Sequence record: NC_014260.1
Source: Escherichia phage IME08
Strand: one strand, 5' to 3'
DNA length: 64,000 nucleotides
Numbering within the stretch: position 1 is the stretch's first letter; each line of letters starts with the position of its first letter. Below the pieces are notes generated by a model. The model did no database searches. It was not told where the DNA came from and worked only from the letters and a program-made list of their open reading frames with translations. Both the position numbers and the translations under genes were made by a program. Positions 4,549-7,447 of this stretch are shown piece by piece.

Positions 4549-5166
4549 TTATTTACGGGTCTTTTCGAACTGGGCCGCGTCACCAGCCAGACGACGAGCT
4601 TGACGAAGTTTGTTGTCGATTTCTTCGCGCATAGGCTGGGTATACTTAAGGCCTTCAACCGTCAGATAGAGGCGATAAAGGTCTGGGGTGTCTAGGTTGT
4701 TAATGTGCTGTCCGTTACGAAGAGTATTGAATTCACGAACAAGGTGTTTAGTTTCGGATTCGATTTCAGAAACCAAAGAAGCCAGTTGATTATATTTTTT
4801 AACTATAGTGCTGGTGTCAAACTTGATTTTAGGTTTAGGAGCTTCTTTTACCGGTTCGGCTTTAGGCGTCGGTTTCGGCGCTGCAACTTTGGCCTGGGCT
4901 GCAGGTTTAGCAACAGGAGCTTTAGCTGGTTTAGCAGGCTTAGTAGCGCCGCCAGCTACGATATCTTTAAAAGCTTTAGAAGCTTTGTAATATTCTTTCT
5001 GGTTACTAGTATCAAAACCATACATATCATAAACGTTTTTAAAGAATTCGGTGGTGGTTTTAGTCCCAGAAATTTTATCATAAGCCGCTTGCCACATATC
5101 TTTAGTCATGCGGACGCCGGCTTCGGTCAGAACGCTTTCGTTCAAAAATTCATTGTAAGTTTTCAT
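4549..5166 (-). CDS. internal head protein, IPIII-like, with capsid targeting sequence [10 protein letters not shown]
   Basis: N-terminus matches T4 CTS MKTYQEFIAE; basic Ala/Lys/Pro-rich core; minus-strand TATAAATA upstream. Confidence 0.7.
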   Translation of the reverse strand: MKTYNEFLNESVLTEAGVRMTKDMWQAAYDKISGTKTTTEFFKNVYDMYGFDTSNQKEYYKASKAFKDIVAGGATKPAKPAKAPVAKPAAQAKVAAPKPTPKAEPVKEAPKPKIKFDTSTIVKKYNQLASLVSEIESETKHLVREFNTLRNGQHINNLDTPDLYRLYLTVEGLKYTQPMREEIDNKLRQARRLAGDAAQFEKTRK

Positions 5167-5194
5167 TATTGTTTCCTGTGTTAATTAACTTATC

Positions 5195-5202
5195 TATTTA
5201 TA
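5195..5202 (-). promoter_or_regulatory. late promoter TATAAATA
   Basis: Exact octamer about 29 nt upstream of IPIII-like start. Confidence 0.6.
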
Positions 5203-5203
5203 C

Positions 5204-5234
5204 AAAAAAGGCCCAACCTTTCGGAAGGGCCTTT
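5204..5234 (-). terminator. rho-independent terminator after tRNA cluster
   Basis: ggccc...gggcc stem flanked by A6 and T3; same 25-nt sequence at 51611. Confidence 0.7.
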
Positions 5235-5400
5235 AACCTAGGGTAACCTTGTCGGGGTTCCACCTGCTAGGCAAGTGTTCGGTGCGCCGTTTCGGCTGTG
5301 AGATAAGGGACTTTAAGAGGAACTCATGTACGCCTTAAAGTCGGGTCTTATTCAGGGAACTTCAGTCCGACGACTTACCGGTAGCGACCCGGTTTCTTGT
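5232..5400 (-). ncRNA. candidate structured stable RNA next to tRNA cluster
   Basis: No ORF; nested stems (cgggtc...gacccg; ccgg...ccgg); sits between tRNAs and the strong terminator, where T4 has small stable RNAs. Confidence 0.3.
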
Positions 5401-5401
5401 T

Positions 5402-5477
5402 TGGCCGAGACAGTAGGGATCGAACCTACGACCCAGGACTTAGAAGGTCCTTGCTCTTCCTTCTGAGCTATGCCTCG
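5402..5477 (-). tRNA. tRNA-Arg (anticodon UCU)
   Basis: Hand-folded cloverleaf: 7-bp acceptor, 4-bp D stem, 5-bp anticodon stem, loop CTTCTAA, T loop TTCGATC, encoded CCA. Confidence 0.8.
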
Positions 5478-5481
5478 TATT

Positions 5482-5556
5482 TGGCGGACATGCATGGATT
5501 CGAACCATGGACCAATTGATTAACAGTCAACTGCTCTACCACTGAGCTACACATCC
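5482..5556 (-). tRNA. tRNA-Asn (anticodon GUU)
   Basis: Hand-folded cloverleaf: acceptor GGATGTG/CATGTCC, loop CTGTTAA, T loop TTCGAAT, encoded CCA. Confidence 0.8.
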
Positions 5557-5560
5557 AAAT

Positions 5561-5634
5561 TGGTGGCCCTGGGTGGAATCGAACCACCATCCAGCGATTA
5601 TGAGTCGCTCGCTTGACCGTCCAGCTACAGGGCC
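5561..5634 (-). tRNA. tRNA-Met (anticodon CAU; could be Ile2 if lysidinylated)
   Basis: Hand-folded cloverleaf: acceptor GGCCCTG/CAGGGCC, anticodon loop CTCATAA, T loop TTCGATT, encoded CCA. Confidence 0.75.
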
Positions 5635-5719
5635 TTAATTCTATTATGAAAGGCTCTTTGAGGGAAGAACCTTTGGTAATAGAGGGTATTAATGATAGAG
5701 TAATAATATCACATAATTC

Positions 5720-6004
5720 TTAAAGCATATTAATGTAATCAAGTTTAATAGAAGCAATCTTCAAAGGATTTTTAAAGATGTCGTATTCGACCAATCCATT
5801 TTCAGTTGCGGTATAAAAAGTAAAGTTAACAGAATTATAACGATGGCTGTTAACTTTGAGCTTAACATCGCTTGAACTACGTCCTATATTAACCTGTTGA
5901 ACATCAAGAACAGCATCTTTGCCATAATTGCGAATCAACAACTCAGCTGCAACCTGATCGGATTTATAGCCATTCTCTGGATTAGTAACCTTAACGTATA
6001 GCAT
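5720..6004 (-). CDS. hypothetical early protein
   Basis: ORF track. Confidence 0.5.
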   Translation of the reverse strand: MLYVKVTNPENGYKSDQVAAELLIRNYGKDAVLDVQQVNIGRSSSDVKLKVNSHRYNSVNFTFYTATENGLVEYDIFKNPLKIASIKLDYINML

Positions 6005-6406
6005 TTAACCCTCGTCTACAATTGTGTGGGTATTGGCATTAACAATCTGCCACCAGTCAAAACGATTAGAACCGTAACAAGGCTTATTCTCGTTATCTTT
6101 AATGATATTACGTAGTTCATCTTCAGTAGCAGCTTTTGCGATTAAGTCAGTGTATCCACCACGTGGATAATAGTTGTCACCGGCGAACAAAAGGAAATTT
6201 ACCTTTCCAGAAGGAATATATGCTTCCTTAGGATACTTGTTTCCTGCATGGTCTACCACTTCAATATAACGATAAGGGATATCAGTACTTTCAACCCATT
6301 GCCAAGCTGCAGCAGGAGAGTCAAAAGCATCAACACCTAAACGGTTATCTTCATCTTTAGACGGGTTATTTTCATAATCCGCATATACATAATATTCAAC
6401 GTTCAT
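6005..6406 (-). CDS. hypothetical early protein
   Basis: ORF track; directly follows upstream gene. Confidence 0.5.
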   Translation of the reverse strand: MNVEYYVYADYENNPSKDEDNRLGVDAFDSPAAAWQWVESTDIPYRYIEVVDHAGNKYPKEAYIPSGKVNFLLFAGDNYYPRGGYTDLIAKAATEDELRNIIKDNENKPCYGSNRFDWWQIVNANTHTIVDEG

Positions 6407-6591
6407 TATTCACCTTTAGAGATTTTATCCATTACGAAAGAGATTGAACCAATTAAAAATGCCACTACTAAAGAGATTATATTCTCGGAAGTTGAAAGCA
6501 TATCGAGCATGAATCCTGCAAACATACTAAAGCCAAAAGCAGTAACGGCTGCCAGTGCAGTAACATTTCTAATTAATTCACAACGTTTCAT
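6406..6591 (-). CDS. small membrane protein, 2 predicted TM helices
   Basis: ORF track start 6603 is TTG; ATG at 6591 with SD ggag; hydrophobic segments. Confidence 0.5.
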   Translation of the reverse strand: MKRCELIRNVTALAAVTAFGFSMFAGFMLDMLSTSENIISLVVAFLIGSISFVMDKISKGE

Positions 6592-6627
6592 TTTATTCTC
6601 CAATCACTCATTTGTTTTGATAGGGCT

Positions 6628-6657
6628 ATAGTACCATCACTAGAGCCCGTTGTAAAC
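6628..6657 (-). promoter_or_regulatory. early-type promoter GTTTAC-N18-TACTAT with palindrome
   Basis: Upstream of 6406..6591. Confidence 0.5.
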
Positions 6658-6659
6658 AA

Positions 6660-6932
6660 TTATTTTAAATAAATTGCATACTTTTTATAACCAGCCGTTT
6701 CGTGACGCAGCCCTTTTTCATTAGCAAAACGTTCAATATTGTTAATTTGATTCTGGTCGAGTTCTGAAGTATCAAATACAAAAAAGTTTCGCTTATTGCC
6801 TAAAGTTACATGATTAGTCAAATCGATGTTATAGAGATGATTTATATTATCAATCATAGTCTTAACAGATTTGTTAATTTTTACTTCTTCATTAAGAATA
6901 GATTCAGCGATAAATTCTTGATATGTTTTCAT
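6660..6932 (-). CDS. internal protein candidate with CTS MKTYQEFIAE
   Basis: N-terminal 10 aa identical to T4 internal-protein CTS; position matches T4 ipI locus next to 57B. Confidence 0.65.
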   Translation of the reverse strand: MKTYQEFIAESILNEEVKINKSVKTMIDNINHLYNIDLTNHVTLGNKRNFFVFDTSELDQNQINNIERFANEKGLRHETAGYKKYAIYLK

Positions 6933-6934
6933 TT

Positions 6935-7159
6935 TTATTCAGCGCCAGCGGCTTTCAAAAGTTTTTTAAGATTAGCGGTGCCTTGAGCAGAAAATGTGAC
7001 CTTGCCGTCTTTTTCGCCGATGCTCCCGGTCAATTTAGCGAGCTTATCACTAGGGACTTTTTTAAAATCAGCCAATGAACCGTCAAAGGTTTTTGTAACA
7101 ACCGGCAGTTGGTCTTCGTGTTTTTTAGCTTCGGTAATAAATTCTTGATAAGTTTTCAT
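6935..7159 (-). CDS. internal protein candidate with CTS MKTYQEFITE
   Basis: CTS-like N-terminus; early-type promoter upstream. Confidence 0.65.
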   Translation of the reverse strand: MKTYQEFITEAKKHEDQLPVVTKTFDGSLADFKKVPSDKLAKLTGSIGEKDGKVTFSAQGTANLKKLLKAAGAE

Positions 7160-7196
7160 TTTGATTTCCGTTTGGTTAGTTTGTTTTGATAGGTCT

Positions 7197-7225
7197 ATAG
7201 TATCATGCCTATAGACCTTGTAAAC
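7197..7225 (-). promoter_or_regulatory. early-type promoter GTTTAC-N17-TACTAT with 9-bp palindrome ggtctatag/ctatagacc
   Basis: Upstream of 6935..7159. Confidence 0.5.
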
Positions 7226-7237
7226 ACCTTTTTTAAA

Positions 7238-7447
7238 TTATTTTAGCCATGAAGAATTTTCAGAGACCCAGCTATCTATATCTGATTGAGGGCCAAAGAA
7301 GTAGGCAACCCCATTAGATAACTCTCCTGAAAGCCAATTTATACCTTTCAGGCTTTCTTTAAATTCTTCAGGAGTACAGGAAACCTCTATTGCCACCGAA
7401 GAGGCGGATTCCATTGCTTCTGTTAAGAATTCATTGTAGGTTTTCAT
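7238..7447 (-). CDS. internal protein candidate with [13 protein letters not shown]
   Basis: CTS-like N-terminus; overlaps end of 57B by 4 nt. Confidence 0.6.

What the first reader, a model, noticed from the sequence alone, without database searches (positions are those of the whole stretch)
4549..7447. Four proteins with the T4 capsid-targeting sequence: a multi-gene internal-protein locus
Four minus-strand genes begin [10 protein letters not shown] (205 aa, IPIII-like), MKTYQEFIAE (90 aa), MKTYQEFITE (74 aa) and [10 protein letters not shown] (69 aa). This is the signal that targets T4 internal proteins into the prohead and is removed by the gp21 protease. The three small ones sit where T4 has ipI, a locus known to be hypervariable. 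These are therefore likely packaged, co-injected proteins and candidate anti-restriction effectors with no recognisable body sequence. uvsW.1 (51379) starts MKTFKEVIQE, which is CTS-like but may be coincidental.
Basis: partly seen in the sequence, partly recalled or inferred. Interest (0 to 1): 0.6.

Follow-up and report, generated by a model that had tools for sequence, protein, structure and literature searches.

The report
Capsid-targeted internal protein genes, T4-like phage
Four genes of this T4-like (Dhakavirus) phage carry the short N-terminal tag that T4 uses to load proteins into its head for injection with the DNA; this is a real but well-known kind of system, with two of the four being families not yet annotated as such.

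Summary
Four minus-strand ORFs (4549-5166, 6660-6932, 6935-7159, 7238-7447) begin MKTY[NQ]EF[LI]xE. The motif occurs nowhere else in the six-frame translation (expected 1e-5).

The window is a Dhakavirus (JS98-like T4 relative). It encodes the T4 prohead protease gp21 (89% identical) and the gp22 scaffold.

The three small genes sit exactly at T4's ipI locus, between trna.4 and 57B (Acb1). The 90-aa gene is Ip9 and the 74-aa gene is annotated Ip8, both already-named internal proteins. The 69-aa and 205-aa families are "hypothetical" in every record I inspected.

The 205-aa protein is not IPIII. It shares no body similarity with it and sits at a different locus (e.8/tRNA). The close relative AnYang has true IPII and IPIII orthologues at the canonical site, which lies beyond the window's left end.

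Gene swaps among relatives break at the end of the tag-coding sequence and at downstream promoter/stem-loop elements. This is the shuffling model I recall from Repoila et al. 1994.

The Ip9 body also occurs without the tag in siphoviruses.

Packaging, cleavage and anti-restriction function are inferred, not shown. The result is a new member of a known kind, of modest interest.

The parts
4549..5166 (-). 205-aa CTS-bearing gene (here 'w205'), leader [10 protein letters not shown]|S with a second conserved site VLTE|AG. Its parts are a small helical N-domain, a Pro/Ala/Lys-rich disordered linker (res 73-110) and a helical C-domain. The mature form has pI 9.7. It is not IPIII.
   Evidence: PHROG 2280 'unknown function'. 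Found in 142 phage records; every annotated record among the 30 listed says 'hypothetical protein'. It holds the same tRNA/e.8 position in Mosigvirus ST0 and Karamvirus PG7, with a late promoter and the leaders MYTFNEFLAE / MLNFKEFITE.
5195..5202 (-). T4 late-promoter box TATAAATA, 28 nt upstream of the w205 ATG
   Evidence: It is conserved upstream of the ST0 and PG7 orthologues.
5207..5234 (-). Terminator-like hairpin plus T-run immediately upstream of the w205 late promoter. It insulates the cassette from the tRNA transcription unit.
   Evidence: -17.8 kcal/mol, z -3.7.
4524..4547 (-). Terminator-like hairpin just after the w205 stop codon
   Evidence: -14.2 kcal/mol, z -3.1.
4462..4489 (-). 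Early sigma-70-like promoter (TTTACA-16-TACTAT, with TG) upstream of e.8. It marks the downstream homology boundary of the w205 cassette (homology to the 154-aa-allele phages ends at 4502).
   Evidence: This copy has no stable stem-loop.
6660..6932 (-). Ip9 orthologue (90 aa): CTS MKTYQEFIAE|S, a short linker, then a 72-aa alpha-beta domain
   Evidence: 78% identical to Ip9 of phage RB15 (UniProt Q38376). Carries 'Ip9' notes in IME341, WG01 and QL01. PHROG 7673 'internal head protein'. AF2 model pLDDT 88. CTS-less homologues exist in Kagunavirus and Seuratvirus, and the domain forms the C-terminus of a 755-aa Kuttervirus protein.
6935..7159 (-). Ip8 orthologue (74 aa), leader MKTYQEFITE|A; Lys-rich mature form of 64 aa, pI 9.5
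   Evidence: 'Ip8' note in QL01. PHROG 8765 'internal virion protein'. Found in 106 phage records, including many Klebsiella T4-like phages.
7238..7447 (-). 69-aa CTS-bearing gene ('w69'), leader [10 protein letters not shown]|AME. The mature 59-aa part is acidic (pI 4.1). Its start overlaps the 57B stop codon (ATGA).
   Evidence: PHROG 23867 'unknown'. Found in 27 phage records, with no feature over the match naming it an internal protein, and left unannotated in JS98. An exhaustive HMMER search found only 4 small homologue clusters, all with a CTS-like leader followed by EAME/EAMD.
7191..7224 (-). Promoter-early-stem-loop (PeSL)-type element upstream of Ip8: TTTACA-16-TACTAT with a 10-bp stem-loop over the -10 box. 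T4 ipI has the same arrangement upstream.
   Evidence: -15.4 kcal/mol, z -4.3. The PeSL concept is from PMC2839356.
6623..6656 (-). Second PeSL-type element downstream of Ip9 and upstream of trna.4. It is the 3' boundary of the Ip8-Ip9 cassette and the site where WG01 carries an extra Ip7 gene.
   Evidence: -12.9 kcal/mol, z -2.5.
7444..7899 (-). Gene 57B = Acb1 anti-CBASS phosphodiesterase, the upstream neighbour of w69 and overlapping it at ATGA (context)
   Evidence: Pfam PF23474 Acb1, E 1.2e-58.
37462..38097 (+). gp21 prohead protease, the enzyme expected to remove the leaders
   Evidence: 88.7% identical to T4 gp21 over 212 aa. The gp21 substrate sites are kept in gp23 (FLTE|AEIGG), gp24 (LLRE|S, LIQE|S) and gp22 (LIAE|A).
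38131..38940 (+). gp22 scaffolding core protein, part of the structure the CTS is thought to bind
   Evidence: 77% identical to T4 gp22. gp67 and gp68 homologues lie at 36768-37393.

Best explanation
These are four internal-protein (IP) genes of a Dhakavirus, at two separate cassette loci.

Proposed mechanism (steps inferred from T4):
1. The 10-residue N-terminal capsid targeting sequence, predicted to be a short helix, docks each protein onto the gp22/gp67/gp68 scaffolding core while the prohead assembles.
2. gp21 then cuts after the Glu of the [I/L]-x-E motif. That is E10, and possibly also E15 in the 205-aa and 90-aa proteins.
3. The mature proteins stay in the head with the DNA and are injected with it.
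4. They can therefore act before any phage gene is expressed, most plausibly as specific inhibitors of host nucleases that attack the modified DNA of T-even-type phages.

Identity of the four genes: two are orthologues of named IPs (Ip9 and Ip8). The 69-aa acidic protein and the 205-aa basic two-domain protein belong to families not annotated as IPs.

How the repertoire changes: whole bodies are exchanged by recombination. The conserved promoter/SD/CTS-coding segment serves as the 5' homology arm. A downstream early-promoter/stem-loop element, or the stop-codon region, serves as the 3' arm.
For: Shown here:
- The motif is present four times against 1e-5 expected, and only at N-termini.
- It is identical or near-identical to the T4 IPII/IPIII leader.
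- Y4, E6, F7, I/L8 and E10 are invariant across all Dhakavirus variants seen (MKSY.., MKAY....SEF....KEF..), while positions 3, 5 and 9 vary.
- gp21 (89% identical), gp22, gp67 and gp68 are present, and known gp21 sites are conserved.
- The three small genes are syntenic with T4 ipI.
- Ip9 and Ip8 identities.
- Diverged homologues of w69 (35-54% identical) and w205 (30-70% identical) keep a CTS-like leader and cleavage site.
- w205 and its orthologues have a late promoter.
- Cassette breakpoints among six relatives fall at the end of the CTS codons (win 7137, 5142) and at the stop codon or PeSL region (win 6666, 4502, 6636-6652).

From the literature:
- The CTS is sufficient for packaging and processing of foreign proteins. 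Residues 4 and 7 serve targeting; residues 8 and 10 serve processing (PMC9026906).
- All T4 IPs bind the core through the CTS and are cleaved by gp21 (PMC5694885).
- Ip1, Ip2 and Ip3 each inhibit one GmrSD type IV enzyme (PMC12373910).

Supporting analogy: in cyanophage S-CREM2, the gp6 SAM hydrolase and gp14 kinase detected by MS in virions begin MKDFDSFLEE and (V)KRFDAFLTE. gp13, listed in the virion table as a hypothetical protein with one peptide, begins MKDLHSFLTE (PMC10665884).
Against: - There is no proteomic or genetic evidence for these four proteins. Packaging, cleavage, injection and any inhibitor activity are all inferred.
- The mature 69-aa product is acidic (pI 4.1), unlike the classical basic IPs. 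Its JS98 orthologue starts with GTG and reads KSYKEF.
- The three ipI-locus genes have only early-type promoters upstream and no TATAAATA, although T4 ipI is arranged the same way.
- No body resembles IPI, IPII or IPIII or any solved or annotated fold, so anti-restriction is a guess by association.
- Ten other ip genes tested by Silas et al. inhibited none of the additional GmrSD systems (PMC12373910).
- Dhakaviruses are predicted to carry arabinosylated 5-hydroxycytosine rather than glucosyl-hmC (PMC13326640), so their targets may differ from T4's.
- CTS-less Ip9 homologues in siphoviruses suggest its target is not specific to T-even DNA.
Confidence: 0.8

Rival explanations
1. The 205-aa protein, and perhaps Lys-rich Ip8, is mainly a DNA-associated or charge-neutralising head component, or a core/scaffold accessory, rather than an anti-defence effector. 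It would be packaged through the CTS but act inside the capsid, in DNA condensation, packaging rate or ejection.
For: - It has a histone-H1-like Pro/Ala/Lys linker (res 73-110), predicted disordered, and a mature pI of 9.7.
- It forms a late-promoter transcription unit.
- Its syntenic position between the tRNAs and e.8 is conserved across Dhaka-, Mosig- and Karamvirus. This looks more like a resident structural gene than a shuffled accessory.
- In T4, only the lysines of internal proteins contact DNA phosphates (PMC3012670).
Against: - The gene is absent from T4: the e.8-rnaC interval has no annotated ORF.
- In IME341, WG01 and QL01 it is replaced by a very divergent 154-aa allele. This is a dispensable, fast-evolving pattern typical of arms-race genes.
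- All three T4 IPs, once thought to be DNA-associated fillers, turned out to be nuclease inhibitors (PMC12373910).
Confidence: 0.25
2. One or more of the genes, most likely the 69-aa one, carries the leader only as a relic of recombination at the IP locus. It is no longer packaged, and is either non-functional or works as an ordinary cytoplasmic early protein.
For: - The mature part is acidic.
- The gene is missing from AnYang and QL01 through a clean deletion flanked by TAAAAT(G/A)A.
- The JS98 copy has a GTG start and an altered leader.
- It is expressed by translational coupling to the early gene 57B.
Against: - The leader and the EAME/EAMD junction are conserved in homologues only 35-54% identical, from other genera.
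- The tetrapeptide FLTE|A equals the gp23 maturation site in this same phage.
- The ORF is intact and 94-100% conserved in 19 Dhakavirus-like records.
Confidence: 0.12
3. The proteins are injected effectors, but against defences other than type IV restriction: for example BREX, type I/III R-M, abortive-infection or nucleotide-signalling systems, or host physiology.
For: - The Ip9 domain occurs as a stand-alone early gene in Kagunavirus and Seuratvirus siphophages and as a C-terminal domain in a Kuttervirus protein. These phages do not, as far as I recall, share T-even-type cytosine hypermodification.
- The locus abuts Acb1, an anti-CBASS gene.
- CTS-like leaders are attached to SAM lyase and kinase cargo in T4-like cyanophages.
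- Ten ip genes gave no GmrSD phenotype (PMC12373910).
Against: - All three characterised IPs target GmrSD-family enzymes.
- The authors argue that both Ip loci specialise on that family (PMC12373910).
Confidence: 0.3

Closest known systems
T4 internal proteins IPI, IPII and IPIII and the capsid targeting sequence (Mullaney & Black 1996; reviewed in PMC9026906, PMC3012670)
   Same: The N-terminal leader is the same (identical in the 90-aa protein), with the same [I/L]-x-E cleavage context. The same protease and scaffold genes are present. The chromosomal site matches for the three small genes (the ipI locus between trna.4 and 57B). The proteins are small and mostly basic.
   Different: The mature parts show no sequence similarity to IPI, IPII or IPIII. 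One product is acidic. The 205-aa gene lies at a site (e.8/tRNA) that is empty in T4.
Ip7-Ip13-type polymorphic IP genes of T-even relatives (Repoila et al. 1994, EMBO J 13:4181; cited in PMC9026906, PMC12373910; details from my own recollection, as the paper was not readable here)
   Same: The 90-aa gene is Ip9 and the 74-aa gene is annotated Ip8. The cassette shuffling, with a conserved leader and conserved flanking expression signals, is the pattern described there.
   Different: In the records I examined, the 69-aa and 205-aa (and 154-aa) families are not named IPs. The e.8/tRNA site is not one of the 'two Ip loci' referred to for T4 (PMC12373910).
Ip1/Ip2/Ip3 inhibitors of GmrSD type IV restriction enzymes (Bair et al. 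2007; Silas et al. 2025, PMC12373910)
   Same: The delivery logic is the same: a pre-made protein injected with the DNA. The genomic hotspot is the same, as is the pattern of one leader joined to unrelated bodies.
   Different: No inhibitor activity or target is known for any of the four. The phage probably has a different cytosine modification (arabinosyl-5-hydroxycytosine, PMC13326640).
PeSL (promoter-early stem-loop) mobile regulatory cassettes of T4-type phages (Arbiol et al. 2010, PMC2839356)
   Same: Two elements flanking the Ip8-Ip9 pair combine a strong sigma-70-like promoter with a stem-loop over the -10 box. They coincide with insertion and replacement breakpoints.
   Different: Here the 5' recombination arm extends into the coding sequence (the CTS codons). 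Mini-circle formation was not tested.

Membership tests
T4-type CTS-bearing internal proteins | N-terminal leader matching MKTYQEFIAE, with the aromatic residues at positions 4 and 7 (targeting) and I/L8 plus E10 (processing) | tested here: met
   All four have Y4, F7, I/L8 and E10. The functional mapping comes from PMC9026906.
T4-type CTS-bearing internal proteins | Cognate prohead protease gp21 and gp22/gp67/gp68 core encoded by the same phage | tested here: met
   gp21 89%, gp22 77%, gp68 72% and gp67 57% identical to T4. Known gp21 sites are conserved.
T4-type CTS-bearing internal proteins | Located in a polymorphic IP locus (ipI locus trna.4-57B, or ipII/III locus denV-e) | tested here: met
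   Met for the 90-, 74- and 69-aa genes. Not met for the 205-aa gene, which sits between e.8 and the tRNAs. That site is itself polymorphic for CTS genes.
T4-type CTS-bearing internal proteins | Physically present in mature heads in N-terminally processed form, and injected | not testable with these tools
   This needs virion proteomics and injection assays. The only indirect support is that CTS-like leaders occur on MS-detected virion proteins in S-CREM2 (PMC10665884).
T4-type CTS-bearing internal proteins | Basic, Lys-rich mature protein (typical of the family, not strictly defining) | tested here: inconclusive
   Mature pI values are 9.7 (205 aa), 9.5 (74 aa), 8.0 (90 aa) and 4.1 (69 aa).
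IPIII (T4 ipIII orthologues) | Sequence similarity of the mature part to T4 IPIII | tested here: not met
   Best BLASTP HSP is 13 residues, E 0.23. A true IPIII orthologue of 198 aa exists in the relative AnYang.
IPIII (T4 ipIII orthologues) | Position between denV/ipII and e | tested here: not met
   The 205-aa gene lies between e.8 and tRNA-Arg. The canonical locus lies beyond the window's left end.
Ip9 | Full-length sequence homology to Ip9 of RB15 and relatives | tested here: met
   78-97% identity over 100% of the length. PHROG 7673, E 3e-56.
Ip8 | Full-length homology to the protein annotated Ip8 | tested here: met
Homologues are 74-100% identical in 106 records. The name rests on the record's annotation only.
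GmrSD / type IV restriction inhibitors (IPI*, Ip2, Ip3) | Homology to a characterised inhibitor | tested here: not met
   No body similarity to IPI, IPII or IPIII. No significant PDB or BFVD fold match was found for the two modelled proteins, the 205-aa protein and Ip9.
GmrSD / type IV restriction inhibitors (IPI*, Ip2, Ip3) | Demonstrated inhibition of a cognate nuclease | not testable with these tools
   This requires plaque and rescue assays of the kind used in PMC12373910.
PeSL regulatory cassette | Strong sigma-70-like promoter plus an adjacent or overlapping stable stem-loop in an intergenic region of a plastic locus | tested here: met
   Met at 7191-7224 and 6623-6656. The third promoter, at 4462-4489, lacks the stem-loop.

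The most novel reading that the evidence does not exclude
The e.8/tRNA site would be a third internal-protein locus not recognised as such in the sources I could read.

- Its 205-aa product (or its divergent 154-aa allele) is conserved in position across Dhaka-, Mosig- and Karamvirus yet annotated 'hypothetical' in every record inspected. It would be a major packaged and injected protein with an H1-like DNA-binding linker.
- Together with the acidic 69-aa protein, it would represent new injected counter-defence families. They would be aimed at nucleases that recognise arabinosylated 5-hydroxycytosine DNA rather than glucosyl-hmC.
- In addition, the Ip9 cargo would be a portable anti-defence domain that siphoviruses express from the genome and T4-like phages pre-load into the capsid.
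Probability: 0.35. Interest if true: 0.5.

Novelty: new member of a known kind. Interest (0 to 1): 0.3.

Why it matters
Internal proteins are among the few phage counter-defences that act before any phage gene is expressed, and each characterised one blocks a specific type IV restriction enzyme. A catalogue of which leader-bearing genes a therapeutic-type coliphage carries helps predict which hosts it can infect.

The practical gains here are modest:
- Two gene families, found in 27 and 142 phage records, could be re-annotated as candidate internal proteins.
- A third cassette site should be included in IP surveys.
- The Ip9 domain can be studied without the capsid-delivery context, because tag-less homologues exist in siphoviruses.

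The concept itself (one tag, many cargos, shuffled cassettes, anti-restriction) has been established since 1994-2025.

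Tried and rejected
- **IPIII homology of the 205-aa protein:** rejected (AnYang has the true IPIII).
- **uvsW.1 as a CTS protein:** rejected. In T4 RefSeq the equivalent residues are internal to a 587-aa UvsW (..KKMLLEFKQFLYEASIDEF..). F7 is replaced by V. The rest is the Pfam UvsW-1 domain.
- **Pfam, PADLOC and PDB sequence searches of the four proteins:** nothing meaningful.
- **Fold searches:** the 205-aa model gave only generic helical hairpins, all with E above 1. 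The Ip9 model (pLDDT 88) had no PDB hit below E 0.03. In BFVD it matched only one uncharacterised 535-aa viral protein.
- **Hits of the 69-aa protein in giant PKD, fn3 and malectin repeat proteins:** these fall in unrelated Pfam families, so I treat them as non-specific.
- **Literature search for Ip7/Ip8/Ip9 by name:** returned only unrelated papers.
- **Papers and proteomics:** Repoila 1994 could not be read. No virion proteomics for a Dhakavirus was found. The Klebsiella T4-like virion MS paper lists 'internal virion proteins', but I could not map them to Ip8.
- **Rfam scan of 4300-8000:** only the three tRNAs.

Full report
**1. Observation**

The four minus-strand ORFs exist as described:
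- 4549-5166, 205 aa, [10 protein letters not shown]|S
- 6660-6932, 90 aa, MKTYQEFIAE|S
- 6935-7159, 74 aa, MKTYQEFITE|A
- 7238-7447, 69 aa, [10 protein letters not shown]|A

In the six-frame translation of the 64-kb window, KTY[NQ]EF[LI]xE occurs only at these four N-termini. Composition predicts 1.25e-5 occurrences, and 200 shuffled windows gave none.

The leaders differ at synonymous sites (ACT/ACA/ACC, TAC/TAT, TTT/TTC). Each pair shows 1-4 synonymous codon differences. The peptide is therefore what is conserved, not a DNA repeat.

**2. What the window is**

The region is 92-98% identical to Dhakavirus genomes, the JS98-like T4 relatives. AnYang, C6 and IME341 are closest. IME281 and UP19 carry the same four genes.

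The gene order is: e.6, a 132-aa ORF, e.8, [205 aa], tRNA-Arg/Asn/Met, trna.2, trna.3, trna.4, [90 aa], [74 aa], [69 aa], 57B, 57A, gene 1.

In T4, ipI lies exactly between trna.4 and 57B. 57B matches Pfam Acb1, the anti-CBASS enzyme, at E 1e-58.

**3. Is the leader a capsid targeting sequence?**

- T4 IPII and IPIII begin MKTYQEFIAE, and IPI begins MKTFKEFTST...ITE|A.
- Amber-suppression mapping in T4 assigns targeting to residues 4 and 7 and processing to residues 8 and 10. The first 10 residues suffice to package foreign proteins (PMC9026906).
- Across every Dhakavirus variant I collected, Y4, E6, F7, I/L8 and E10 are invariant, while positions 3, 5 and 9 vary. The variants are MKTY/MKSY/MKAY, then Q/N/S/K, then EF, then I/L, x, E.
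- The window encodes gp21 (88.7% identical to T4), gp22, gp67, gp68, gp23 and two gp24 paralogues.
- The classical gp21 sites are retained: gp23 FLTE|AEIGG, gp24 LLRE|S and LIQE|S, gp22 LIAE|A. The 69-aa leader ends in the same FLTE|A as the gp23 site.
- AF2 predicts the leader as a short helix, residues 4-13 and 4-15, at low to moderate confidence.

Every sequence-testable criterion for a T4-type internal protein is therefore met. Packaging, cleavage and injection themselves are inferred.

**4. Identity of each gene**

*90 aa = Ip9.*
- It is 78% identical to Ip9 of phage RB15 (UniProt Q38376).
- It falls in PHROG 7673 'internal head protein'.
- It carries 'Ip9' notes in IME341, WG01 and QL01 and is found in 198 phage records.

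*74 aa = Ip8.*
- The name comes from the QL01 annotation.
- It falls in PHROG 8765 'internal virion protein'.
- It occurs in 106 records, including many Klebsiella T4-like phages.

*69 aa.*
- It falls in PHROG 23867 'unknown' and occurs in 27 records: Dhakavirus, EcS1, Erwinia Gravdalen, Citrobacter Merlin, CF1 and Ursula.
- No feature lying over the match names it an internal protein. In JS98 it is not annotated at all.
- An exhaustive HMMER search of 1.84 billion representatives found only four small homologue clusters. All carry a CTS-like leader followed by EAME/EAMD.
- Its mature part is acidic, pI 4.1.

*205 aa.*
- It falls in PHROG 2280 'unknown' and occurs in 142 records. Every annotated record among the 30 listed says 'hypothetical protein'.
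- It is not IPIII. It shares no body similarity with IPI, IPII or IPIII and lies between e.8 and the tRNAs, an interval that has no annotated ORF in T4.
- The 96.5%-identical relative AnYang has genuine IPII (100 aa) and IPIII (198 aa) orthologues at the denV-e locus. It also has three more CTS ORFs there (99, 119 and 132 aa). That locus corresponds to sequence just left of this window.
- A phage of this type thus carries about eight leader-bearing genes at three sites.

**5. The 205-aa family**

AF2 (pLDDT 66) gives three parts: a small helical domain (res 20-71, pLDDT 82-87), a disordered Pro/Ala/Lys-rich linker (73-110), and a helical C-domain (119-203). No PDB fold match was found.

The gene is a self-contained late unit: a terminator hairpin, TATAAATA, the SD, the gene, then a second terminator hairpin.

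Orthologues in Mosigvirus ST0 (65% identical) and Karamvirus PG7 (34% identical) share four features:
- the same tRNA/e.8 position;
- the same hairpin plus TATAAATA upstream;
- related leaders, MYTFNEFLAE and MLNFKEFITE;
- a second conserved [I/L]TE|AG site.

In IME341, WG01 and QL01 the site holds a 154-aa CTS protein instead. Its architecture is the same and it is probably a very divergent homologue. The hhalign probability is 90% with E 1e-6, partly driven by the leader. BLASTP against the PG7 orthologue gives E 3e-7 over the linker and C-domain.

**6. How the loci change**

Pairwise comparison with six relatives and T4 shows the following.
- JS98 replaces Ip9 and most of Ip8 with an unannotated 97-aa CTS ORF. 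Homology stops at window 6666, just above the Ip9 stop codon (6660-6662). It resumes at 7137, after the first 23 nt of the Ip8 coding sequence.
- The 205-aa/154-aa exchange is bounded at 5142, after the first 25 nt of the coding sequence, and at 4502 beside the e.8 promoter.
- WG01 has an extra Ip7 inserted at 6636-6652, within the element downstream of Ip9.
- AnYang and QL01 lack the 69-aa gene through a clean 7247-7445 deletion flanked by TAAAAT(G/A)A. Both 57B and the 69-aa protein end in -LK*.

Three similar early-promoter elements (TTTACA-16/17-TACTAT, with TG) lie at 7224-7197, 6656-6628 and 4489-4462. The first two carry a stem-loop over the -10 box (z -4.3 and -2.5). T4 ipI has the same arrangement. 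These fit the PeSL 'mobile regulatory cassettes' of Arbiol et al. (PMC2839356).

The leader-coding DNA thus doubles as the 5' homology arm for cassette exchange. As I recall it, this is the model of Repoila et al. 1994, which is cited in PMC9026906 and PMC12373910 but was not readable here.

**7. Cargo modularity**

The Ip9 body (res ~18-90; AF2 pLDDT 88, alpha-beta-beta-alpha-beta-beta) also occurs without the leader:
- as stand-alone 72-74-aa early ORFs in Kagunavirus and Seuratvirus siphophages;
- as the C-terminal domain of a 755-aa Kuttervirus protein.

The T4-like forms add 17-21 N-terminal residues, the leader plus a short linker. No annotated fold or family was found.

A row-capped scan of IMG/VR for the back-translated leader returned 132 unique leader-bearing ORFs in at least 57 body families.

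**8. Function**

- Literature: IPI* inhibits GmrSD (PMC3012670).
- Silas et al. 2025 showed that Ip1, Ip2 and Ip3 each block one distinct GmrSD variant. They proposed that both Ip loci specialise on this family. Ten further ip genes gave no phenotype in their panel (PMC12373910).
- By association, the four proteins here are candidate injected nuclease inhibitors. Nothing in their sequences or predicted folds confirms this.
- Dhakaviruses are predicted to carry arabinosylated 5-hydroxycytosine (PMC13326640), so the relevant host enzymes may differ from T4's.
- The tag-less Ip9 homologues in siphoviruses argue for a target not specific to T-even DNA.
- For the 205-aa protein, a DNA-associated role inside the head is a serious alternative.

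**9. uvsW.1**

The ORF at 51379-51606 starts MKTFKEVIQE. It overlaps the uvsW stop codon (ATGA), and residues 20-73 form the Pfam UvsW-1 domain. In the T4 RefSeq record, uvsW and uvsW.1 form one 587-aa ORF, and the corresponding residues are internal. Position 7 is V rather than F. I regard the resemblance as coincidental.

**10. Verdict**

Three corrections apply: the IPIII label is wrong, the claim of no recognisable bodies is overstated, and function remains inferred.

The system is a known kind. The modest new elements are:
- two families that are unannotated as IPs;
- a third cassette site;
- the tag-less Ip9 homologues.

Interest is 0.3.

Noticed in passing
L095:4467-4952 (+) and 31 other IMG/VR loci; L135:338-1582 (-) (S-CREM2 gp6): The largest family of leader-bearing ORFs in the IMG/VR scan has 32 unique members starting MKTYKEFxxE, all from low-GC contigs, some at least from marine samples. 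It matches Pfam S-AdoMet_lyase (E 9e-19) and occurs in the T4-like cyanophages P-TIM68, S-H34, S-N03 and S-CREM2. In S-CREM2, the SAM hydrolase gp6 and kinase gp14 were detected in virions by MS (PMC10665884) and begin MKDFDSFLEE and (V)KRFDAFLTE. gp13, listed in the virion table as a hypothetical protein with one peptide, begins MKDLHSFLTE. A T4-type targeting leader may therefore load enzymes, including an anti-restriction SAM lyase, into cyanophage capsids. That paper did not appear among those using the term 'capsid targeting sequence'.
   Followed up: partly
window 6660-6932 (-); L010:2507-2725, L012:2492-2716, L011:491-2758: The Ip9 mature domain has leader-less homologues as small early ORFs in Kagunavirus and Seuratvirus siphophages. 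It also forms the C-terminal domain of a 755-aa Kuttervirus protein next to structural genes.
   Followed up: yes
window 7444-7899 (-): Gene 57B is an Acb1 anti-CBASS phosphodiesterase (Pfam E 1e-58). The 69-aa leader-bearing gene overlaps its stop codon (ATGA) and has a GAGG Shine-Dalgarno inside 57B, which suggests translational coupling of the two.
   Followed up: partly
L002 (JS98 NC_010105) 5180-5473 (-) and about 5556-5762 (-): The JS98 RefSeq record has no annotated gene in the 650 bp between trna.4 and 57B. The interval nevertheless holds a 97-aa ORF starting MKTYQEFIKE and the 69-aa homologue with a GTG start, (M)KSYKEFLTE.
   Followed up: yes
L009 (AnYang NC_055782) 7808-10403 (-): Around denV and e, this close relative carries five leader-bearing ORFs: 99, 119, 100 (IPII), 198 (IPIII) and 132 aa. 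Two of them are annotated only as 'hypothetical protein'.
   Followed up: partly
window 41629-42897 and 42910-44181 (+): There are two tandem gp24 (vertex protein) paralogues, 70% and 56% identical to T4 gp24. Both keep an N-terminal gp21 site, LLRE|S and LIQE|S.
   Followed up: no
window 49886-51606 (+): uvsW (498 aa) and uvsW.1 (75 aa) are separate ORFs here, overlapping at ATGA. The T4 RefSeq record has a single 587-aa uvsW.
   Followed up: partly
window 5240-5400 (-): About 160 nt lie between tRNA-Arg and the terminator upstream of the 205-aa gene, with no ORF and no Rfam match. The part nearest the tRNA aligns to the T4 interval that holds the end of rnaD and tRNA-Arg. It could be a small stable RNA like T4 rnaC/rnaD.
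   Followed up: no
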